The notes beneath the pieces were generated by a model. It was not told the origin of the DNA, did not search any database, and worked only from the letters and a program-made list of their open reading frames with translations. The position numbers and the translations under genes are program-made. From assembly GCF_030384885.1 (NCBI RefSeq), contig NZ_CP128613.1: a stretch of 64,000 bases of DNA; one strand, written 5' to 3'. Positions 2,347-60,900 of the stretch are shown piece by piece. This stretch comes from Escherichia coli (GTDB taxonomy: Bacteria > Pseudomonadota > Gammaproteobacteria > Enterobacterales > Enterobacteriaceae). Each line of letters begins with the position of its first letter. Position 1 is the stretch's first letter.

Positions 2347-3114
2347 TTATTGTTTTATTATCTTAACGTGCGCCGTTCCTCCATTGACTTTTTCGAAATC
2401 TTGGAACAAGGCAGGGGCATCTTGAGTTACAATATCGTAAAGTTTTTCTGAAACTGTTCTCATTTCATAGTCACCCTGTATTGCTCCTCTCATTTCGAAG
2501 AAGTGTCGAATTGCGCGAGCATTTGCTGTGACGATTATTTTTGTCTCGGTTGCATTAGGCAATATAGAGCGAGAAGCGCTTCTTAAGGCCCGCATTTTTT
2601 CTTTTTTGTTCTCATACGATTGGTTTTCACGGATTTTTTTCAAGGATTGCTTATAAAAATCCAGACTACTTTCAATATGTTGGCACCATGACTTAAACAA
2701 TTCTGGGTCATTTTTTACTTCTATAGGGGCTACGAATTCAGCATCGGATTCATCATGATACTGTTGGGATAACTGGCTATATGAAAAACCAGCTCTATGC
2801 CGAACTAGCTGGTGTGTAAATGCACGAGATACCCCAGTAATTAAAAAGGTCCAGTTCAAATGTTCTAAGACACTTTCATGCCCTTGAATAATTAAATTGT
2901 TGATATATTGACTTGTAGTCCGTGGAGACTGCTTATCCTCTCCAAAAGACATATAACATAGCCTGCCAGCGGCCTCTACCAGAAGCTCAGCTTCGGTCGC
3001 CTGCCCTTTGCGAACCCATTGCAATGATGATGTGTTTAAAAAATCATCAAAAACATTACTTTCAAATGAAGGGTGTGATATGCATTTTACTGATAAATCA
3101 GAGATTTTTATCAT
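2347..3114 (-). CDS. ThyX-like flavin-dependent thymidylate synthase homolog (divergent)
   Basis: 255 aa. Contains EHLNWTF...HQLVRHRAGFSYSQLSQQY, matching the ThyX signature (RHR followed by a conserved Ser) as recalled from Thermotoga ThyX, plus an N-terminal AAGRLCYMSF block. It has a one-residue insertion after RHR and Gln where the SxRY Arg is expected. Start codon lies 2 nt after the upstream gene's stop; SD gggag. Confidence 0.7.
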   Translation of the reverse strand: MIKISDLSVKCISHPSFESNVFDDFLNTSSLQWVRKGQATEAELLVEAAGRLCYMSFGEDKQSPRTTSQYINNLIIQGHESVLEHLNWTFLITGVSRAFTHQLVRHRAGFSYSQLSQQYHDESDAEFVAPIEVKNDPELFKSWCQHIESSLDFYKQSLKKIRENQSYENKKEKMRALRSASRSILPNATETKIIVTANARAIRHFFEMRGAIQGDYEMRTVSEKLYDIVTQDAPALFQDFEKVNGGTAHVKIIKQ

Positions 3115-3116
3115 TT

Positions 3117-3902
3117 TTACTCCCGTATAGCTTTTGGGGTGCTTACTTTAGCATCAACCTTTGGTTCGTTTGATTTAGCATTTTTTAGTAATTCAACGGT
3201 GCTTTTTAGGCTATTTATTTCATTTTGTTGAACTTTTATTGTTAATTCAAGATCTTTTGTACTACTGACATTACTGGATACTATTTGAAATAAGAAAGGA
3301 ATTGCTAGGGTTATCAACGTTAGCATTAAGGCTGCTATCGCAATTATAAAGCCAGTTTTTTTCGCAATGATTTTATTGATTTCTTTCGGAAGTCGTTTAT
3401 CAAGTCCTGCAAAATCCTTTCCCATTCTAGAAAGTTGATCATCATCCAATTTATTTACGATTTTTCCTTGGTAACCTTTAGTCGGTATTATTGTTTTAAA
3501 TAATAACATTCGGGCTACTGCTGAATTTTGTGTCAATGAGAATGGTTCTTTTGACATATTTACAAGATATATTGAAATTATGCCATTATATCCAGGGTCA
3601 ATATGCCCTGGATTCGTCATGATAATTCCATTTTTTGATAGTGTGTTTCTTGGAAATATTACACCAGCTAAATTTTTTGCAAGTTGGAATTTTTCATTTA
3701 ACTCTAATATTACAGTTTCCCCTGGCATCAGGATATGGTTGTTACGTGTTTTTTTATTGTCTTGACAGTCTGGTATATGTATTGTTTTTACAGAGAGATC
3801 AATGCTTGCAGATTGAACTTTAAATGTTCCATTTAATACCGTTAATGGATCAAAAATGTTGCCTCGCTGAATTTCATCATTGATTTCTATTTCAGACAGC
3901 AT
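3117..3902 (-). CDS. dCTP deaminase/dUTPase-fold protein with C-terminal transmembrane helix and coiled-coil tail
   Basis: 261 aa. N-terminal ~140 aa carry Dcd-family motifs (SIDLSV; LMPGETVILE; GHIDPGYNGIISIYLVN; LTQNSAVARMLLF), comparable to the E. coli Dcd IDPGW-G region. The C-terminal ~110 aa contain a 22-residue hydrophobic segment (GFIIAIAALMLTLITLAIPFLF) followed by a heptad-like polar stretch. Confidence 0.7.
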   Translation of the reverse strand: MLSEIEINDEIQRGNIFDPLTVLNGTFKVQSASIDLSVKTIHIPDCQDNKKTRNNHILMPGETVILELNEKFQLAKNLAGVIFPRNTLSKNGIIMTNPGHIDPGYNGIISIYLVNMSKEPFSLTQNSAVARMLLFKTIIPTKGYQGKIVNKLDDDQLSRMGKDFAGLDKRLPKEINKIIAKKTGFIIAIAALMLTLITLAIPFLFQIVSSNVSSTKDLELTIKVQQNEINSLKSTVELLKNAKSNEPKVDAKVSTPKAIRE

Positions 3903-3928
3903 ATCAAAATCCTATATTTGTAAAGTTA

Positions 3929-4942
3929 TTATAAATTAGCCAGAGGGTTTTTTATTACTGCATCTTCAAGATGCTCTGGGGAAAAATGTGCATAAATCAT
4001 AGTCATTTTTATATCAGAGTGGCCTAAAATATCTCGTAAAACCAAAATATTACCACCATTCATCATAAAATGGCTGGCGAATGTATGGCGCAGAACGTGA
4101 GTGCATTGGCCCTCTGGTAACTCAATGTCAGCTCGCTTTACTGCTCGTTCAAAGGCTTTTCTGCAAGGAGTGAATAACTTCCCTCTGTTCTTAGGGAGTT
4201 CGTCATACAGATCCTGAGATATCGGCACGGTACGGTTTTTCTTGCCCTTAGTCTTGGTATAGGTGATCCGGTATTTCGATAACTGATGGCCCTGCAGATT
4301 TTCGGCTTCACTCCAGCGCGCGCCGGTGGCCAGGCATATTTTTGTAATTAAAAGTAGACTGGGGCTTTGAGAATCAGCACAGGCATCCAGCAGACGTTTA
4401 ATTTCTTCCGGGGTCAGGAACGACAGTTCACCCTCAGCAATTTTAAATGTTGGCAGCCCGGCAAGCGGATTGGGGGCTGACCAGTGGCCCAACTTTTTCA
4501 GTGTGCCAAAAACAGATGATAGGTTGCGCTGTTCAAGGTTTACAGTGCGGGGCTTAACGGGCGACATAAGCGTGCCCTCTTCATTTCGCACTTCACCTTT
4601 TAGCCGCGCTTCTCGGTATTTAGTAAAATCACCGGCTGTCAGCTCTGAGGCGATGGGATCGCCTAGACCATTACAGATAATTCTAAGTTTCGCCATGAGG
4701 CGCTTGGGGTCTGCGAGTGTTTGACCATACAGGGAATACCACTGCTCAATTAATTCTGATAGGTGTCGCCGATCTTCCTTTTCCCCCAGCCATGGCTTTT
4801 TGTTCACTTCTTCCATTGTGAAGCTTTCAAAAGCAATGGCTTCGCCTTTCGTAGCAAATTGCTTACGCACGCGCTTGCCATTGCGTCCATGGGGATAGCA
4901 CTCGCACAACCATTTACCGTTTGGCTGTTTTCTGACAGTCAT
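3929..4942 (-). CDS. int: Phage integrase, tyrosine recombinase (P2/186-type)
   Basis: 337 aa. Catalytic residues in conserved context: ATGARWSE (Arg), HVLRHTF (His-x-x-Arg), MIYAHF (Tyr). Directly downstream of the cI-like gene as in the coliphage 186 lysogeny operon. Confidence 0.85.
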   Translation of the reverse strand: MTVRKQPNGKWLCECYPHGRNGKRVRKQFATKGEAIAFESFTMEEVNKKPWLGEKEDRRHLSELIEQWYSLYGQTLADPKRLMAKLRIICNGLGDPIASELTAGDFTKYREARLKGEVRNEEGTLMSPVKPRTVNLEQRNLSSVFGTLKKLGHWSAPNPLAGLPTFKIAEGELSFLTPEEIKRLLDACADSQSPSLLLITKICLATGARWSEAENLQGHQLSKYRITYTKTKGKKNRTVPISQDLYDELPKNRGKLFTPCRKAFERAVKRADIELPEGQCTHVLRHTFASHFMMNGGNILVLRDILGHSDIKMTMIYAHFSPEHLEDAVIKNPLANL

Positions 4943-16497: not shown

Positions 16498-16860
16498 TGG
16501 TGGAGCTGGCGGGAGTTGAACCCGCGTCCGAAATTCCTACATCCTCGGTACTACATGCTTAGTCAGTCTTTACATTCGCTTGCCAGCTGCGGACGGACAC
16601 GCCACTAACAAACTAGCCTGATTAAGTTTTAACGCTTCAACCCCAGGCAGGGCTTCCACGCGATCTCTTTTGGGTTTGACCTCTCTTGATCCCCGTCCTA
16701 AGAGCGGAGGCTAGGGAGAGAGGGCTCTAAGCAGGTTATTAAGCTGCTAAAGCGTAGTTTTCGTCGTTTGCGACTATTTTTTGCGGCTTTTTACGAGGCC
16801 AACCGCCCCTCGGCATGCACCTTGGGTTTCGCAAATCCCGTCGAATCCAGAATCAGCCCC
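16498..16860 (-). ncRNA. ssrA: tmRNA (SsrA)
   Basis: The reverse complement reads ggggctgattctggattcgacggg...gttcaactcccgccagctccacca, the E. coli tmRNA sequence, 363 nt. Confidence 0.95.
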
Positions 16861-35319: not shown

Positions 35320-35399
35320 TCAATAAAAAAGGCCCCCCGATTTGGGAGGCCTTATTGTTCGTCTTCGCATTCTGTTTCACACGACGAAACGCCTCCCAT
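35320..35399 (-). promoter_or_regulatory. pheA attenuator (leader terminator/antiterminator)
   Basis: On the minus strand: ggcctcccaaatcggggggcc hairpin followed by a T run, between pheL and pheA. Confidence 0.8.
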
Positions 35400-35447
35400 T
35401 CAGGGGAAGGTAAAAAAGAATGCGAAGAAAAACGGTGTGTGTTTCAT
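35400..35447 (-). CDS. pheL: pheA leader peptide
   Basis: Translates to MKHTPFFFAFFFTFP followed by a stop; Phe-rich leader. Confidence 0.85.
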   Translation of the reverse strand: MKHTPFFFAFFFTFP

Positions 35448-35550
35448 GTTTGTTTCCTTAAGTGACTTTAGTACAGTACCCGTACTGTTTTCACGCTGTC
35501 AACAAAAAACGCGCCCGAAGGCGCGTTGGCGATACACTCAATATAAAGGA

Positions 35551-39564: not shown

Positions 39565-39693
39565 CCTAAAGAATCAAGACGATCCGGTACGCGTGATTTT
39601 CTTTTCACATTAATCTGGTCAATAACCTTGAATAATTGAGGGATGACCTCATTTAATCTCCAGTAGCAACTTTGATCCGTTATGGGAGGAGTT

Positions 39694-42267
39694 ATGCGTC
39701 TGGATCGTCTTACTAATAAATTCCAGCTTGCTCTTGCCGATGCCCAATCACTTGCACTCGGGCACGACAACCAATTCATCGAACCACTTCATTTAATGAG
39801 CGCCCTGCTGAATCAGGAAGGGGGTTCGGTTAGTCCTTTATTAACATCCGCCGGCATCAATGCTGGTCAGTTGCGCACAGATATCAATCAGGCATTAAAT
39901 CGTTTACCGCAGGTTGAAGGCACTGGTGGCGATGTCCAGCCCTCACAGGATCTGGTGCGCGTTCTTAATCTTTGCGACAAGCTGGCGCAAAAACGTGGTG
40001 ATAATTTTATCTCGTCAGAACTGTTCGTTCTGGCGGCACTTGAGTCTCGCGGCACGCTGGCCGACATCCTGAAAGCAGCAGGGGCGACCACCGCCAACAT
40101 TACTCAAGCGATTGAACAAATGCGTGGAGGTGAAAGCGTGAACGATCAAGGAGCTGAAGACCAACGTCAGGCTTTGAAAAAATACACTATCGACCTCACC
40201 GAACGAGCCGAACAAGGCAAACTCGATCCGGTGATTGGCCGTGATGAAGAAATTCGCCGTACCATTCAGGTACTGCAACGTCGTACTAAAAATAACCCGG
40301 TGCTGATTGGTGAACCAGGCGTTGGTAAAACAGCCATCGTTGAAGGTCTGGCTCAGCGTATTATCAATGGCGAAGTGCCGGAAGGGTTGAAAGGCCGCCG
40401 CGTACTGGCGCTGGATATGGGCGCGCTGGTGGCTGGGGCGAAATATCGCGGTGAGTTTGAAGAGCGTTTAAAAGGCGTACTTAACGATCTTGCCAAACAG
40501 GAAGGCAACGTCATCCTGTTTATCGACGAATTACATACCATGGTCGGCGCGGGTAAAGCCGATGGCGCAATGGATGCCGGCAACATGCTGAAACCGGCGC
40601 TGGCGCGTGGTGAATTGCACTGCGTAGGTGCCACGACACTGGACGAATATCGCCAGTACATCGAAAAAGATGCTGCGCTGGAACGTCGTTTCCAGAAAGT
40701 GTTTGTTGCCGAGCCAACCGTGGAAGACACCATTGCTATTCTGCGTGGCCTGAAAGAACGTTATGAACTGCACCACCATGTGCAAATTACTGACCCGGCA
40801 ATTGTTGCAGCGGCGACGTTGTCTCATCGCTACATTGCTGACCGTCAGCTGCCGGATAAAGCCATCGACCTAATCGATGAAGCAGCATCCAGCATTCGTA
40901 TGCAGATTGACTCAAAACCAGAGGAACTCGACCGACTCGATCGTCGTATCATCCAGCTCAAACTGGAACAACAGGCGCTAATGAAAGAGTCTGATGAAGC
41001 CAGTAAAAAACGCCTGGATATGCTCAACGAAGAACTGAGCGACAAAGAACGTCAGTATTCCGAGTTAGAAGAAGAGTGGAAAGCTGAGAAAGCATCGCTC
41101 TCTGGTACGCAGACCATTAAAGCGGAACTGGAGCAGGCGAAAATCGCCATTGAACAGGCTCGCCGTGTTGGGGATCTGGCGCGGATGTCTGAACTGCAAT
41201 ACGGCAAAATTCCAGAACTGGAAAAGCAACTGGAAGCCGCTACGCAGCTCGAAGGCAAAACTATGCGTCTCTTGCGTAATAAAGTGACCGACGCCGAAAT
41301 TGCTGAAGTGCTGGCGCGTTGGACGGGGATTCCGGTTTCTCGCATGATGGAAAGCGAGCGCGAAAAACTGCTGCGTATGGAGCAAGAACTGCACCATCGC
41401 GTTATTGGTCAGAACGAAGCGGTTGATGCGGTATCTAACGCTATTCGTCGTAGCCGTGCGGGGCTTGCGGATCCAAATCGCCCGATTGGTTCATTTCTGT
41501 TCCTTGGGCCAACTGGTGTGGGTAAAACTGAACTTTGTAAGGCGCTGGCGAACTTTATGTTCGATAGCGACGAGGCGATGGTTCGTATCGATATGTCCGA
41601 ATTTATGGAGAAACACTCGGTGTCTCGTCTGGTTGGTGCGCCTCCGGGATATGTCGGTTATGAAGAAGGTGGCTACCTGACCGAAGCGGTGCGTCGTCGT
41701 CCGTATTCCGTCATCCTGCTGGATGAAGTGGAAAAAGCGCATCCGGATGTCTTCAACATTCTGTTGCAGGTACTGGATGATGGGCGTCTGACTGACGGGC
41801 AGGGGAGAACGGTCGACTTCCGTAATACGGTTGTCATTATGACCTCTAACCTCGGTTCCGATTTGATTCAGGAACGCTTCGGTGAACTGGATTATGCGCA
41901 CATGAAAGAGCTGGTACTCGGTGTGGTAAGCCATAACTTCCGTCCGGAATTCATTAACCGTATCGATGAAGTGGTGGTCTTCCATCCGCTGGGTGAACAG
42001 CACATTGCGTCGATTGCGCAGATTCAGTTGAAACGTCTGTACAAACGTCTGGAAGAACGTGGTTATGAAATCCACATTTCTGACGAGGCGCTGAAACTGC
42101 TGAGCGAGAACGGTTACGATCCGGTCTATGGTGCACGTCCTCTGAAACGTGCTATCCAGCAGCAGATCGAAAACCCGCTGGCACAGCAAATACTGTCTGG
42201 TGAATTGGTTCCGGGTAAAGTTATTCGCCTGGAAGTTAATGAAGACAGGATTGTCGCCGTCCAGTAA
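39694..42267 (+). CDS. clpB: Chaperone ClpB
   Basis: 857 aa from [11 protein letters not shown]; two AAA+ modules ([16 protein letters not shown]). Confidence 0.95.
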
Positions 42268-42709: not shown

Positions 42710-44251
<1,542 letters not shown>

Positions 44252-44336
44252 CCTTAAAGAACTGTGCTTTGCAGTGCTCACACAGATTGTCTGATGAAAA
44301 GTGAAAAGCAAGGCGTCTTGCGAAGCAGACTGATAC

Positions 44337-44412
44337 GTCCCCTTCGTCTAGAGGCCCAGGACACCGCCCTTTCACGGCGGTAACAGGGGTTCGAATCCCC
44401 TAGGGGACGCCA
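44337..44412 (+). tRNA. gltW: tRNA-Glu (spacer tRNA)
   Basis: gtccccttcgtctagaggcccaggacaccgccctttcacggcggtaacaggggttcgaatcccctaggggacgcca. Confidence 0.9.
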
Positions 44413-44606
44413 CTTGCTGGTTTGTGAGTGAAAGTCGCCGACCTTGATATCGTTAAAGATGACTTACGAGTCATGTTTAAGATATTTGCTCTTTAAAAAT
44501 CTGGATCAAGCTGAAAATTGAAACACTGAACAACGAAAGTTGTTCGTGAGTCTCTCAAATTTTCGCAACACGATGATGAATCGCAAGAAACATCTTCGGG
44601 TTGTGA

Positions 44607-47511
<2,905 letters not shown>

Positions 47512-47606
47512 ACAACGCCGAAGGTGTTTTGGCGGAAGAGACATCGATAAGTAAGCTTGATAACAGATTAAATCAGAACGCAGAAGCGGTCTGATGAAAC
47601 AGAATT

Positions 47607-47726
47607 TGCCTGGCGGCCTTAGCGCGGTGGTCCCACCTGACCCCATGCCGAACTCAGAAGTGAAACGCCGTAGCGCCGATGGTAGTGTGGGGTCTCCCCA
47701 TGCGAGAGTAGGGAACTGCCAGGCAT
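47607..47726 (+). rRNA. rrf: 5S ribosomal RNA
   Basis: tgcctggcggc...gggaactgccaggcat, 120 nt. Confidence 0.95.
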
Positions 47727-58373: not shown

Positions 58374-58475
58374 TTGTTATCTCCTCTGTTTTGATAGACA
58401 GTACCCGACACGGAACATTTAAAAAAATGAATGTTTTTACATTCTAAATTCGATATTTTCGATAGGTTTGGGGTT

Positions 58476-59357
58476 ATGGATCTGCGCCGTTTTATTACGC
58501 TTAAAACCGTGGTGGAAGAGGGTTCCTTTTTGCGAGCTTCGCAAAAGTTATGCTGTACACAATCGACGGTGACTTTTCATATTCAGCAGCTTGAACAGGA
58601 GTTCTCAGTACAATTGTTTGAGAAAATTGGCCGACGGATGTGCCTCACTCGCGAAGGCAAAAAGTTGCTGCCGCACATCTATGAACTCACCAGAGTGATG
58701 GATACGCTTCGTGAGGCTGCCAAAAAAGAGTCGGAACCGGACGGGGAACTACGCGTTGTTTCGGGCGAAACGTTGCTCTCTTACCGAATGCCGCAGGTGT
58801 TGCAGCGTTTTCGGCAACGTGCACCAAAAGTGCGTTTATCGCTGCAGTCGCTGAACTGTTACGTGATCCGTGATGCTCTACTGAATGATGAGGCCGATGT
58901 CGGTGTTTTTTATCGCGTAGGAAATGATGATGCTCTGAATCGACGAGAATTGGGTGAACAATCGCTGGTGCTGGTGGCTTCACCGCAAATTGCAGATATC
59001 GATTTTACCCAGCCGGGAAGACATAACGCCTGTAGTTTTATTATCAACGAACCGCAATGTGTCTTCCGGCAGATATTTGAGAGCACGCTGCGCCAGCGGC
59101 GGATCACGGTGGAAAATACCATTGAGCTTATAAGTATCGAAAGCATAAAGCGTTGTGTCGCGGCGAATATCGGAGTTAGCTATCTGCCGCGTTTTGCGGT
59201 GGCAAAAGAGTTGGAGTGCGGAGAATTAATCGAATTGCCTTTTGGCGAACAGTCGCAGACCATTACGGCAATGTGCGCTCACCATGCCGGGAAAGCGGTT
59301 AGCCCGGCGATGCACACTTTTATTCAGTGTGTTGAAGAGTGTTTTTTGCCGGGATAA
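58476..59357 (+). CDS. yfiE: LysR-family transcriptional regulator YfiE
   Basis: Start at MDLRRFITLKTVVEEGSFLRASQKL (HTH). Confidence 0.85.
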   Translation: MDLRRFITLKTVVEEGSFLRASQKLCCTQSTVTFHIQQLEQEFSVQLFEKIGRRMCLTREGKKLLPHIYELTRVMDTLREAAKKESEPDGELRVVSGETLLSYRMPQVLQRFRQRAPKVRLSLQSLNCYVIRDALLNDEADVGVFYRVGNDDALNRRELGEQSLVLVASPQIADIDFTQPGRHNACSFIINEPQCVFRQIFESTLRQRRITVENTIELISIESIKRCVAANIGVSYLPRFAVAKELECGELIELPFGEQSQTITAMCAHHAGKAVSPAMHTFIQCVEECFLPG

Positions 59358-59359
59358 AA

Positions 59360-59570
59360 ATAATGCCGGGCTTAAACCCGGCACCCAACTTGTCGACGAA
59401 GTGCGTTTTGTTCATGCCGGATGCGGCGTGAACGCCTTATCCGGCCTATAAGATCGTGCAAATTCAATATATTGCATGAGCCATGTAGGCCTGATAAGCG
59501 TAGCGCATCAGGCAGTTTTGCGTTTGCCAGCACTTTTAATTCCGGGCTTAAACCCGGAATTAAGATCACT
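59360..59570. repeat. REP/BIME-type palindromic repeat cluster between yfiE and srmB
   Basis: gccggatgcggcgtgaacgccttatccggcctat and aggcctgataagcgtagcgcatcaggc units, flanked by two ccgggcttaaacccgg hairpins. Confidence 0.7.
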
Positions 59571-60900
59571 CTTCTGTCGTTTGCGGTGGCACGCCCGTTC
59601 CGCTTGGTTTACGGCGCTTACCAATATTTTTGGTGTCGCGATGGCGTTTTTTCACCCGCGGCTTCTCTTTCTCTTTAGCTTTTTTCTTCTCGGCACGTTT
59701 AGCCAGTACTTTCTTCGATGGCTTGCCGGTCTGCTTTTCGCTTGGCGCACGCGTTTTCGGGCGTAACTCATCAATAACGCGAGCTTTAATTGGCTCTTCA
59801 ATATAGCGGCCTACTTTGCCCAGCAGCAGATGGTCATGAGCTTCAACCAGCGAAATCGCGGTTCCCTTACGACCGGCGCGCGCGGTACGTCCGATACGGT
59901 GTAAATAAGTATCGCCACTGCGTGGCATATCGAAGTTAAAGACATGGCTGACATCCGGAATGTCGATACCGCGCGCGGCAACATCGGTGGCAACCAGTAC
60001 GTTAACGCGACCTTCGGTCAGACGCTTGATCGCTTCGTTACGCTTGCCTTGTACCATCTCACCTTCGAGATAGCAGTTGTTGATGCCCGCTTCGCGCAGC
60101 CAGTTTGCCAACTCATGCACACGCTCACGCTTACGCACAAATACAATTGAGCGGGTCGCTTCCGGTTGTTTTAACAGATGCACCAGTAATGCGGTTTTAT
60201 GCTCAAGATCATCAGCGCGGTAATACCACTGATGAATCTTTTTGCGCTCACGGGTGGATGGATTCGCAGAAACTTCCACCGGATCTTCAAGCAGACGCTC
60301 GGCAAAATCCTGAATGGCATCGCCTTCAAGCGTTGCCGAGAAGAGCAGGGTCTGTTTACGCCAGCGCGTTTCGCCTGCAATATGTTCGATATCCTGAGCA
60401 AAACCCATATCCAGCATACGGTCTGCTTCGTCGAGGATCAGCGTTTCAACCGCGCGGCAATCGAAGTTCTCTTCTTTTATGTATTGCAGCAGACGTCCGG
60501 TCGTGGCAACCACGATATCCTGGTTTTCGCTGAATACTTCCGCGTGGTTCATATAGGCTACGCCGCCGGTGATGGTGGCGATATCCAGATGCGTATGTTT
60601 CGCCAGTTCGCGGGCATGATCGGCCACCTGCATCGCCAGTTCGCGAGTCGGGGTGAGGATCAAAATACGCGGCGGACCGGATTTCTTACGGGGGAAATCG
60701 AGCAGGTGCTGCAACGCTGGCAGCAGATACGCCGCCGTTTTACCGGTGCCTGTCGGCGCAGAACCGAGTACATCACGGCCATCGAGCGCAGGCGGAATGG
60801 CGGCAGCCTGAATGGCGGTCGGGCGAGTGAAACCTTTATCCTGGAGGGCTTCCAGCAGGCTTTCGTCGAGTTCAAGTTCGGAAAAAGTCGTTACAGTCAT
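59566..60900 (-). CDS. srmB: ATP-dependent DEAD-box RNA helicase SrmB
   Basis: 444 aa, motifs [17 protein letters not shown]. Confidence 0.95.

What the first reader, a model, noticed from the sequence alone, without database searches (positions are those of the whole stretch)
59360..59570. Twin ccgggcttaaacccgg hairpins bracketing a REP pair between yfiE and srmB
Two near-identical short hairpins sit at each end of a REP/BIME cluster. They probably serve as terminators for yfiE (plus strand) and srmB (minus strand); the symmetric arrangement is tidy but likely conventional.
Basis: seen in the sequence. Interest (0 to 1): 0.15.

Follow-up and report, generated by a model that had tools for sequence, protein, structure and literature searches.

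The report
Terminator hairpin duplicated by BIME-1 insertion
The two matching hairpins are two copies of the single terminator that originally sat between yfiE and srmB, duplicated when a known 151-bp repeat element (BIME-1) was inserted, and other BIME-1 copies show the same footprint, which hints at how these elements insert.

Summary
The exact 16-mer CCGGGCTTAAACCCGG occurs only at 59366-59381 and 59542-59557, against 0.07 matches expected by chance. It is the core of a 21-25-nt direct repeat spaced 176 bp apart, and the repeat brackets a REP pair between yfiE and srmB.

The REP pair is a complete BIME-1/RIP element, 151 bp at 59386-59536, made of a Y REP, an IHF linker and a Z1 REP. About 47% of 5,425 complete E. 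coli genomes carry this arrangement. The rest are exactly 176 bp shorter, with one hairpin and no BIME.

E. albertii and Citrobacter also have one hairpin. In 69 of 80 Enterobacterales species, srmB is followed by a hairpin plus T-tract. The single hairpin is therefore the ancestral terminator, and the twins behave as a target duplication.

Five of 14 BIME-1 sites, plus two tandem arrays, carry locus-specific 20-28-nt hairpin duplications abutting precise element ends. All four sites checked have single-hairpin empty alleles.

The geometry puts each gene's complete terminator (hairpin plus U-tract) on the far side of the BIME, not the near side.

The element itself is known. I found no description of the whole-hairpin duplication in the accessible literature, but key 1990s papers could not be read. 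Interest is moderate.

The parts
58476..59357 (+). yfiE (LysR-family regulator) CDS. The stop codon TAA is at 59355-59357.
   Evidence: The ORF ends at 59357 and gives LysR-family hits. RefSeq annotates an 882-nt yfiE at this position in identical or near-identical records. The start coordinate is taken from the 882-nt RefSeq length; the first ATG of the ORF is at 58431.
59351..59363 (-). U-tract (AUUAUUUUUAUCC on the minus strand) that completes the canonical intrinsic terminator in the srmB direction. It overlaps the yfiE stop codon.
   Evidence: The terminator scan found one site: minus strand, stem 59385-59362, 10 pairs, tail ATTTTTATCC. The same tail follows the single hairpin in empty alleles and in E. 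albertii.
59361..59385 (.). Left (yfiE-side) copy of the duplicated hairpin, TAATGCCGGGCTTAAACCCGGCACC. The last two bases have diverged from the ancestral TT.
   Evidence: Direct repeat D2 and inverted repeat I11, the fold, and alignment with K-12 and empty alleles.
59386..59536 (+). BIME-1 (RIP/RIB) element, 151 bp. This is the inserted segment that is absent from empty alleles.
   Evidence: It is absent, together with one hairpin copy, from ATCC 25922, O157:H7 and STEC1589. A BIME-1 profile matches it over its full length, as it does 13 other genomic sites. The single-stranded DNA folds to -30.9 kcal/mol, z = -4.0.
59386..59401 (+). Left terminal motif of the element (CAACTTGTCGACGAAG; family consensus CAGATTGTTGACAAAG). 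It is an imperfect inverted repeat of the right end.
   Evidence: Consensus of the termini over 10 sites; 12 of 16 positions are complementary to the right end.
59415..59449 (+). Y-type REP (palindromic unit), TGCCGGATGCGGCGTGAACGCCTTATCCGGCCTAT.
   Evidence: Inverted repeat I3 and alignment to other BIME-1 copies. The label Y comes from my own knowledge of the Gilson/Bachellier nomenclature and from the description in PMC3333891.
59450..59484 (+). L linker carrying the IHF-site motif (AATTCAATATATTG).
   Evidence: Rfam ES036 hit at 59450-59492, 48.1 bits against a gathering score of 37.6. The 21-mer is unique in the window. PMC3333891 states that the BIME-1 L linker frequently carries an IHF site. 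IHF binding was not tested here.
59485..59514 (+). Z1-type REP, GTAGGCCTGATAAGCGTAGCGCATCAGGCA, with its 5' GTAG.
   Evidence: Inverted repeats I4 and I9 and the alignment. IS621 is inserted immediately after this GTAG in strain EC20017429.
59521..59536 (+). Right terminal motif of the element (CGTTTGCCAGCACTTT; the family consensus ends in GTCATCAGTCTCA).
59537..59561 (.). Right (srmB-side) copy of the duplicated hairpin, TAATTCCGGGCTTAAACCCGGAATT. One stem pair has changed from G-C to T-A on both sides.
   Evidence: D2 and I2, the fold, the alignment and the pair counts.
59566..60900 (-). srmB (DEAD-box RNA helicase) CDS. The stop codon TGA is at 59566-59568.
   Evidence: The ORF, the NCBIfam SrmB equivalog at 817.9 bits and the RefSeq annotation.

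Best explanation
The twin hairpins are two copies of one ancestral bidirectional intrinsic terminator shared by the convergent genes yfiE and srmB. The duplication arose when a 151-bp BIME-1 (RIP) element was inserted at that hairpin.

Shown:
- Occupied alleles equal the empty allele plus the BIME-1 plus a second copy of a 22-25-bp segment spanning the whole stem-loop.
- The single-hairpin state is ancestral.
- The same architecture recurs at other BIME-1 sites. There the duplicated hairpins are locus-specific, the element ends are precise, and the duplication length (about 20-28 bp) tracks the size of the hairpin.

Inferred mechanism: integration used cuts on opposite strands at the two feet of the extruded target hairpin or cruciform. 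The element was joined in, and gap filling copied the whole hairpin on both sides. The enzyme is unknown. The REP-associated Y1 transposase TnpA-REP is a candidate but was not tested.

Present-day consequences (inferred from geometry and folding):
- Each flank keeps its own outer sequence, so each gene's hairpin-plus-U-tract terminator is now the distal copy.
- Both mRNAs should therefore read through the proximal hairpin and the BIME-1, acquiring a structured 3' UTR of about 200 nt, before terminating.
- Termination is preserved for both genes, which may be why such insertions are tolerated.
- The two copies also act as direct repeats for recombination. This gives precise loss, which regenerates the empty allele, or tandem amplification.
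For: 1. Direct repeat and chance. The 16-mer is found only twice against 0.07 expected. It sits in a 21-nt repeat spaced 176 bp apart.

2. Polymorphism. 2,524 of 5,425 genomes cover at least 80% of the 521-bp query. The others span 345 bp, exactly 176 bp less. The alignment shows one hairpin, TAATGCCGGGCTTAAACCCGGCATT, and no BIME in ATCC 25922, O157:H7 and STEC1589.

3. Polarity. E. albertii and the GTDB E. coli representative have a single hairpin, as does Citrobacter, which also has yfiE. In 69 of 80 Enterobacterales species, srmB is followed by a hairpin plus T-tract.

4. Generality. Among 14 distinct BIME-1 sites, 5 have 20-27-nt direct repeats abutting the element, with alignment scores of 14-19.5. 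The control of 182 mismatched-locus flank pairs reached at most 10.5. Empty alleles with exactly one hairpin were found at yccJ/agp (182 bp shorter), rutG/ymdF (174 bp shorter) and ysgA/metE (171 bp shorter). All are between convergent genes.

5. Element ends. Termini are precise and conserved across sites: 5'-CA(G/A)ATTG...TCTCA-3'.

6. Recombination between the copies. There are tandem arrays of hairpin-plus-BIME units with periods of 176 bp (L008, same locus) and 174 bp (L177).

7. Terminator geometry. The only canonical terminator is the left hairpin on the minus strand. The srmB-proximal copy lacks a U-tract.
Against: - No transposition event was observed. The insertion is inferred from comparative data only.
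- Y1 (IS200/IS605-type) transposases, the only enzymes so far linked to REP/BIME, are described as making no target duplication (PMC3333891 and PMC2817692). The candidate enzyme therefore does not obviously fit.
- Nine of the 14 sampled sites show no clear duplication. At least one of these, uvrB/yvcK, is an old, cross-species insertion where decay is plausible, but insertion without duplication cannot be excluded.
- Evidence that both hairpins are kept by selection is weak. Two stem pairs have changes on both sides, and 38 of 500 shuffles do as well.
- No 3'-end mapping data could be found for these transcripts.
- Flanking SNP haplotypes are shared between occupied and empty alleles. The history therefore involves recombination and/or repeated loss and is not resolved.
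Confidence: 0.8

Rival explanations
1. One reading: two ordinary, independent terminators, one per gene, that happen to be similar and flank a REP cluster.
For: Both copies fold stably on both strands. Each lies within 10 nt of a stop codon. The hairpin family is a conserved srmB terminator.
Against: - The similarity is a direct repeat of 21-25 nt that includes non-stem bases.
- Alleles lacking the BIME have one copy and are exactly one repeat period shorter.
- The proximal copies lack U-tracts, and the only canonical terminator is crossed relative to the genes.
- The same pattern, with different hairpins, occurs at other BIME-1 sites.
Confidence: 0.03
2. The duplication arose by replication template switching rather than by a transposase-like cut. 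A nascent strand stalled at the terminator hairpin, copied a BIME-1 elsewhere, then re-annealed upstream of the hairpin and copied it a second time.
For: Hairpins and palindromes are known pause and template-switch sites (general knowledge). There are 1-3 ambiguous bases (TA and T) at the junctions of this locus that could serve as microhomology. The duplication length tracks hairpin size.
Against: Element termini are the same to the nucleotide at many unrelated sites. Copy-choice with microhomology would not be expected to give that. No donor-flank sequence is carried along.
Confidence: 0.12
3. The hairpins are part of the repeat element itself, for example the terminator-like 'REPt' units annotated next to some RIPs, and were brought in with the BIME.
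For: [quoted passage not shown] Hairpins adjoin most BIME-1 copies sampled.
Against: The flanking hairpins differ completely in sequence between loci. One copy remains in every empty allele examined. At this locus the hairpin is conserved in genera that have no BIME here.
Confidence: 0.02
4. The occupied state is old, and the 'empty' alleles are all secondary precise deletions between the twin hairpins. On this view the polymorphism reflects loss rather than recent insertion.
For: - The occupied allele occurs in E. coli and in two divergent Escherichia lineages (L007, L008) that share element-specific variants (AACTTGTCGAC and CACTTT). This argues for one old insertion.
- Occupied alleles differ from each other by about 5%.
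- Tandem arrays show that the repeats do recombine.
- Flank haplotypes are shared across the two states.
Against: This does not explain where the duplication came from, so it complements the best explanation rather than replacing it. E. albertii and Citrobacter are empty. The K-12 repeat copies are now too diverged (5 of 25 positions) to regenerate the ancestral hairpin seen in empty alleles.
Confidence: 0.4

Closest known systems
BIME-1 / RIP (RIB) elements of E. coli: a Y REP, an L linker with an IHF site, and a Z1 REP
   Same: The 151-bp insert aligns over its full length with 13 other BIME-1 copies. It has inverted Y-type and Z1-type REPs with the GTAG/CTAC tags and the conserved linker. 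It is extragenic, at 3' ends and between convergent genes. It shows presence/absence polymorphism, as reported for BIME-1 (PMC1187871 citing Bachellier 1997).
   Different: Nothing in the element itself differs. What the accessible literature does not describe is that the element is bracketed by a duplicated, locus-specific terminator hairpin.
Bidirectional intrinsic terminators between convergent genes
   Same: The ancestral single hairpin has an A-tract on one side and a U-rich tail on the other. It lies 3-8 nt from both stop codons.
   Different: In the window the terminator is split into two copies. Each copy keeps only its outer tract, so each is a complete terminator for only one direction, the far gene's.
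Target-site duplications of MITEs, for example Neisseria Correia elements (about 150 bp, inverted ends, an IHF site, a TA duplication)
   Same: The size is similar, there is a central IHF site, the ends are imperfect terminal inverted repeats, direct repeats abut the ends, and there are empty sites with one copy.
   Different: The duplication here is 20-28 bp, varies in length and coincides with a whole stem-loop. It is not a fixed 2-10 bp. No cognate DDE transposase is known.
REPIN/RAYT (TnpA-REP, a Y1 HUH transposase) mobilisation
   Same: A REP doublet in inverted orientation can fold as a long hairpin. E. coli TnpA-REP cleaves and rejoins BIME single-stranded DNA in vitro (PMC3333891).
   Different: IS200/IS605-type transposition makes no target duplication. 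The E. coli RAYT gene is flanked by Y and Z2 units, not Z1.
CRISPR repeat duplication during spacer integration (Cas1-Cas2, with IHF in E. coli). This is an analogy from my own knowledge.
   Same: Staggered attacks at the two ends of a roughly 28-bp, often palindromic repeat, followed by gap filling, duplicate the whole repeat on either side of the insert. IHF is involved.
   Different: This is a resemblance in outcome only. There are no cas genes, no array and no leader, and nothing was tested. It is not a membership claim.
RecA-independent deletion and amplification between short direct repeats
   Same: The twin hairpins are 21-25-nt direct repeats 176 bp apart. Precise-loss alleles and tandem arrays with the same period both exist.
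   Different: This explains the later dynamics of the locus, not how the duplication arose.

Membership tests
BIME-1 / RIP element | Two REPs (palindromic units) of Y and Z1 type in inverted orientation, with GTAG/CTAC tags | tested here: met
   Inverted repeats I3, I4 and I9. The Y arm ends in CCTAT (CTAC in K-12) and the Z1 arm starts with GTAG. The region aligns with other BIME-1 copies. The type names are assigned from my own knowledge and from PMC3333891.
BIME-1 / RIP element | A conserved long (L) linker with an IHF-site motif between the REPs | tested here: met
   Rfam ES036 scores 48.1 bits against a gathering score of 37.6. The 21-mer GTGCAAATTCAATATATTGCA is shared exactly with 13 other genomic sites. 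IHF binding itself cannot be tested here.
BIME-1 / RIP element | A single unit of about 140-150 bp, extragenic, at 3' ends of transcription units | tested here: met
   The insert is 151 bp and lies between the stop codons of convergent genes. PMC1187871 gives about 140 bp for BIME-1.
Intrinsic (Rho-independent) terminator | A G+C-rich stem-loop followed immediately by a U-tract, downstream of a stop codon | tested here: met
   This is met only for the left copy on the minus strand: 10 pairs, 6 of them G-C, tail AUUUUUAUCC. It is not met for the right copy on the minus strand (tail AAAGUGCUGG) or for the left copy on the plus strand (tail CCCAACUUGU). The right copy on the plus strand has only a weak U-rich tail.
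Intrinsic (Rho-independent) terminator | A mapped transcript 3' end at the U-tract | not testable with these tools
   No paper in the library mentions both srmB and yfiE, and no Term-seq supplement is held.
Target-site duplication of a mobile element | Direct repeats that abut the element ends and are specific to the locus | tested here: met
   The repeats end 0-4 nt from the element ends at 5 of 14 sites, with scores of 14-19.5 against a control maximum of 10.5. The hairpin sequences differ between loci.
Target-site duplication of a mobile element | Empty sites carrying exactly one copy of the repeat | tested here: met
   Seen at srmB/yfiE, yccJ/agp, rutG/ymdF and ysgA/metE.
Target-site duplication of a mobile element | A fixed duplication length set by the transposase, as for DDE elements | tested here: not met
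   The length differences between occupied and empty alleles are 171, 174, 176 and 182 bp for an element of 151-153 bp. The duplication is therefore about 20-28 bp and follows the size of the hairpin.
Target-site duplication of a mobile element | An observed de novo insertion | not testable with these tools
   The evidence here is comparative only.
REPIN mobilised by a RAYT | An inverted REP doublet able to fold as one long hairpin | tested here: met
   The single-stranded DNA folds to -30.9 kcal/mol, z = -4.0, with the ends paired.
REPIN mobilised by a RAYT | Y1-type single-strand transposition, which leaves no target duplication | tested here: not met
   A 22-25-bp duplication is present. 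The literature states that this transposase family makes no such duplications.
REPIN mobilised by a RAYT | A cognate RAYT gene (yafM / tnpA-REP) in the genome | not tested
   The window does not cover that locus.
MITE | Terminal inverted repeats matching those of an autonomous IS | tested here: inconclusive
   The 16-nt ends are complementary at 12 of 16 positions. No matching IS was searched for or is known.

The most novel reading that the evidence does not exclude
The most novel reading not excluded is that a whole-hairpin target duplication is the general integration signature of BIME-1. On this reading the element is inserted by structure-directed cuts on opposite strands at the two feet of an extruded terminator hairpin, followed by fill-in. 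The outcome resembles CRISPR repeat duplication, and IHF bound to the L linker may take part. This would be an undescribed integration mode, differing both from DDE transposition and from classical Y1 single-strand transposition. It would also explain why BIME-1 elements sit in 3' UTRs between convergent genes without abolishing termination.
Probability: 0.35. Interest if true: 0.65.

Novelty: new variant of a known kind. Interest (0 to 1): 0.4.

Why it matters
How REP/BIME elements spread has been an open question since their discovery. Ton-Hoang et al. 2012 call the mechanism unknown, and in vivo transposition has not been shown.

A locus-specific duplication of a whole hairpin, with precise element ends and matching empty alleles at four loci, is a concrete footprint that any integration model must explain. 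It does not fit the duplication-free Y1 mechanism usually assumed.

It also makes the question testable, because a terminator hairpin on a plasmid could serve as an insertion trap.

For gene expression, it predicts that occupied and empty E. coli strains, roughly half each at this locus, differ in the 3' UTRs of srmB and yfiE. Occupied strains should carry about 200 extra structured, mutually antisense nucleotides while still keeping a complete terminator for each gene.

For annotation, hairpins next to RIP elements should be read as resident terminators, not as parts of the repeat.

Tried and rejected
- 3'-end data: no paper in the library mentions both srmB and yfiE, and the one Term-seq paper checked has no held supplement.
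- Older primary papers: Bachellier et al. 1997 (Genetics 145:551) and Boccard & Prentki 1993 are not held. I therefore could not check whether flanking repeats of BIME-1 were already described there.
- Literature searches: seven full-text searches and ten papers read found no description of a hairpin or terminator duplication flanking BIME-1. They gave only presence/absence of BIME-1, 'no target duplication' for Y1 transposases, tandem REPIN units with flanks in Pseudomonas, and a 'REPt' terminator annotated within a RIP.
- Viral contig scan for more BIME-1 copies: two hits. The one I could read was a chance match in AT-rich DNA; the other locus file (L200) was not available and went unexamined.
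- Test for compensatory evolution of the two hairpins: suggestive only. Two pairs changed on both sides, intermediates exist, and 38 of 500 shuffles did as well. I do not rely on it.
- Sub-threshold Rfam hits (naRNA4 at 38 bits against 59.5; SorY at 20 bits against 111): these reflect REP similarity or chance.
- Mechanical ORFs inside the spacer (59372-59569 on the minus strand, 65 aa; 59421-59678 on the plus strand, 85 aa): they run through REPs and are absent from empty alleles. They were not pursued.
- Hypothesis that the hairpins belong to the BIME consensus: rejected.
- The katE/chbG and glmS-downstream sites: their non-occupied alleles have different flanks, so they gave no clean empty site.

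Full report
**What is in the sequence**

Positions 59357-59566 are the spacer between two convergent genes. The plus-strand ORF ending at 59357 is a LysR-type regulator. The minus-strand ORF 59566-60900 matches the NCBIfam SrmB equivalog at 818 bits. RefSeq annotates a 100%-identical E. coli record as yfiE and srmB.

The 16-mer CCGGGCTTAAACCCGG occurs exactly twice, at 59366-59381 and 59542-59557. Shuffles expect 0.07 matches. The similarity is not just two alike hairpins. It is a direct repeat of 21 nt at 95% identity with a 176-bp period. Both copies fold on either strand, at -17.5 to -19.3 kcal/mol and z of -2.6 to -3.7.

Between them lie a Y-type REP (about 59415-59449), a conserved linker, and a Z1-type REP (59485-59514). 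The linker matches Rfam ES036/CssrF above its gathering score. This is the layout of a BIME-1, also called a RIP or RIB element (PMC3333891).

**The key comparison**

I ran megablast with a 521-bp query around the spacer against 5,426 complete E. coli genomes. There are two length classes. 2,524 genomes cover the whole query. Most of the others match over a span of 345 bp, exactly 176 bp shorter, which is one repeat period.

Alignment of K-12 (occupied) with ATCC 25922, O157:H7 and STEC1589 shows what the short alleles contain. They have a 32-bp spacer with one hairpin, TAATGCCGGGCTTAAACCCGGCATT, and no BIME. An occupied allele therefore equals the empty allele plus a 151-bp element (59386-59536) plus a second copy of a 22-25-bp segment covering the whole stem-loop. 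The 3-nt uncertainty arises because the bases at both junctions are identical.

**Which state is ancestral**

I fetched srmB loci from 80 species.
- E. albertii and the GTDB E. coli representative have the single hairpin.
- Citrobacter species, which also have yfiE, have one hairpin followed by a T-tract.
- Genera that lack yfiE still have a GCCGGG-loop-CCCGGC hairpin plus T-tract just after srmB.
- Overall, 69 of 80 loci have a hairpin followed by at least 5 T in 9 nt.

The single hairpin is the conserved srmB terminator, bidirectional in Escherichia, and the doubled state is derived.

Two divergent Escherichia lineages are occupied (L007; L008 has two tandem units). They share element-specific variants with the E. 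coli alleles. The insertion therefore looks old and single, followed by loss, recombination or both. That history is not resolved. A 4-SNP haplotype at the end of yfiE occurs with both states.

**Is this peculiar to this locus? No**

An exact search for the BIME-1 linker 21-mer in metagenome contigs gave 109 loci. A profile search over everything fetched gave 14 distinct full-length BIME-1 sites. I aligned the 60 nt outside the left end against the 60 nt outside the right end at each site.

| Measure | Result |
|---|---|
| Sites with 20-27-nt direct repeats within 0-4 nt of the element ends | 5 of 14 |
| Alignment scores at those sites | 14-19.5 |
| Control: 182 left/right flank pairs from different loci | mean 6.0, maximum 10.5 |

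Each repeat is a different, locus-specific G+C-rich hairpin.

Two further cases are tandem arrays of hairpin-plus-BIME units. One has 3 units with a 174-bp period (L177). The other has 2 units with a 176-bp period at srmB/yfiE itself, in Escherichia sp. E1V33.

I looked for empty alleles at three of these other sites and found them each time, always with exactly one hairpin.

| Site | Genomes occupied | Empty allele shorter by |
|---|---|---|
| yccJ/agp | 89 | 182 bp |
| rutG/ymdF | 1,734 | 174 bp |
| ysgA/metE | 0 E. coli genomes (the occupied contig is from a relative) | 171 bp |

All four sites, including srmB/yfiE, lie between convergent genes.

The element termini are the same to the nucleotide across sites: 5'-CA(G/A)ATTGTTGACAAAG...GTCATCAGTCTCA-3', imperfect inverted repeats matching at 12 of 16 positions. 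The duplication length varies from about 20 to 28 bp and follows the size of the resident hairpin.

**Mechanism**

What is shown is a footprint: precise element ends, a duplicated whole hairpin, and a single-copy empty site.

What I infer is that the target hairpin or cruciform was cut on opposite strands at its two feet. The element was joined in, and gap filling copied the hairpin on both sides.

The precise ends argue against a purely replicative template-switch origin, which I keep as a rival. The variable length, dictated by structure, argues against a DDE-type transposase.

The only enzyme family linked to REP/BIME is the Y1 transposase TnpA-REP. It acts at hairpin feet on single strands, but it is described as leaving no target duplication. 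The enzyme therefore remains unknown.

The closest analogy in outcome is the duplication of a palindromic CRISPR repeat during spacer integration, which in E. coli also uses IHF. I recalled this from my own knowledge and tested nothing about it.

**Consequences for the two genes**

Each flank keeps its own outer sequence, so the U-tract for srmB (AUUAUUUUUAUCC, overlapping the yfiE stop codon) stays with the left copy.
- The left copy on the minus strand is the only canonical terminator found by the scan.
- The srmB-proximal copy is followed by AAAGUGCUGG.
- In the yfiE direction, the weak U-rich tail stays with the right copy.

I therefore infer that both transcripts read through the near hairpin and the BIME before terminating. 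That gives each a structured 3' UTR of about 200 nt; for srmB the fold is -88.2 kcal/mol, z = -5.6. The two 3' UTRs are mutually antisense.

This crossing is a geometric necessity at every such site. It also means the insertion leaves each gene with a complete terminator. I found no 3'-end mapping data to test this.

Evidence that selection keeps both hairpins is only suggestive. Two stem pairs have changes on both sides, including an intermediate (CCAGG..CCCGG becoming CCAGG..CCTGG), and 38 of 500 shuffles do as well.

**The twin copies as recombination substrates**

Tandem arrays with the same period exist. Recombination between the copies would regenerate the empty allele precisely. Empty alleles therefore cannot be told apart from revertants by sequence.

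In K-12 the two copies now differ at 5 of 25 positions, which should stabilise the insertion. I infer that occupied alleles whose repeats have diverged are the ones that survive.

**Comparison with what is known**

These points are already known:
- the BIME-1 element and its presence/absence polymorphism (PMC1187871 citing Bachellier 1997);
- the bias of REPs toward convergent gene pairs and bidirectional terminators (bioRxiv 10.64898/2026.03.23.713779);
- IS targeting of REPs.

K-12 annotation even lists a terminator ('REPt') as part of a RIP (PMC2892488).

In seven full-text searches and ten papers I found no statement that BIME-1 is flanked by a duplication of the resident terminator hairpin. 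The 1990s primary papers are not held, so prior description cannot be excluded.

**Verdict**

The hairpins are terminator-derived, but they are one terminator duplicated by an insertion, with the complete terminators crossed relative to the genes.
- The object is a known element.
- The whole-hairpin, variable-length duplication is, as far as I could check, a new variant of a target duplication, and a useful mechanistic clue.
- Interest is 0.4.

Noticed in passing
L196 about 2790-4067 (E. coli EC20017429); corresponds to window 59488/59489: An IS621 (IS110-family) transposase element is inserted inside the Z1 REP of this same BIME-1, immediately after the GTAG (..GAGCCACGTAG | IS | ..GGCCTGATAAGCG). 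This fits the known REP targeting of that IS family.
   Followed up: partly
L197 1117-2449 (E. coli Yu5), in the yfiE-srmB spacer: A frameshifted IS3-family transposase occupies the same spacer in another strain. The junctions were not examined.
   Followed up: no
L008 3833-4200 (Escherichia sp. E1V33) and L177 2634-3138: There are tandem arrays of hairpin-plus-BIME-1 units: two units with a 176-bp period at srmB/yfiE, and three units with a 174-bp period at another site. This is the expected reciprocal product of recombination between the duplicated hairpins.
   Followed up: partly
window 59450-59492: The Rfam 'sRNA' family ES036 (CssrF) matches the BIME-1 L linker over its full length (48.1 bits). 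The family appears to model a repeat-element linker, so hits elsewhere probably mark BIME-1 copies rather than a dedicated sRNA gene.
   Followed up: partly
window 59200-59720: The window's allele is rare in E. coli. Only 9 records are at least 99% identical, and K-12 is 94.8% identical. Its BIME is closer to that of Escherichia sp. MOD1-EC7003 (148 of 151 positions) than to K-12 (145 of 150). This may reflect introgression or an old lineage.
   Followed up: partly
window 59335-59357 (last codons of yfiE): A cluster of 4 SNPs in about 12 bp (GAGTGTTTTTTGCCGGGATAA against GAGAGTTTTGTGGCTGGATAA) defines two haplotypes. Each occurs with both occupied and empty alleles, which implies recombination or repeated loss next to the insertion site.
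   Followed up: partly
window 59566-59568: The srmB stop codon is TGA in the window but TAA in K-12 and the other alleles aligned (ATCA against ATTA on the plus strand).
   Followed up: no
L150 1217-1372 (downstream of glmS): A BIME-1 lies next to the glmS terminator region, near the Tn7 attachment site. It has a full hairpin on one side and only the 3' half (AGGGCAT) on the other. Non-occupied E. coli alleles have different flanks, so no clean empty site was obtained.
   Followed up: partly
L110 1343-1496 (uvrB/yvcK spacer): This BIME-1 is shared between E. coli (3,643 genomes) and a contig only about 87% identical to them. It has a hairpin on one side only, which is consistent with decay of one copy at old insertions.
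   Followed up: partly
window 16498-16860, 35323-35448, 39575-39713, 42710-47724: Other Rfam features in the window are tmRNA, the Phe leader, RyfD and a complete rrn operon with a spacer tRNA. They are ordinary and unrelated to the finding.
   Followed up: no
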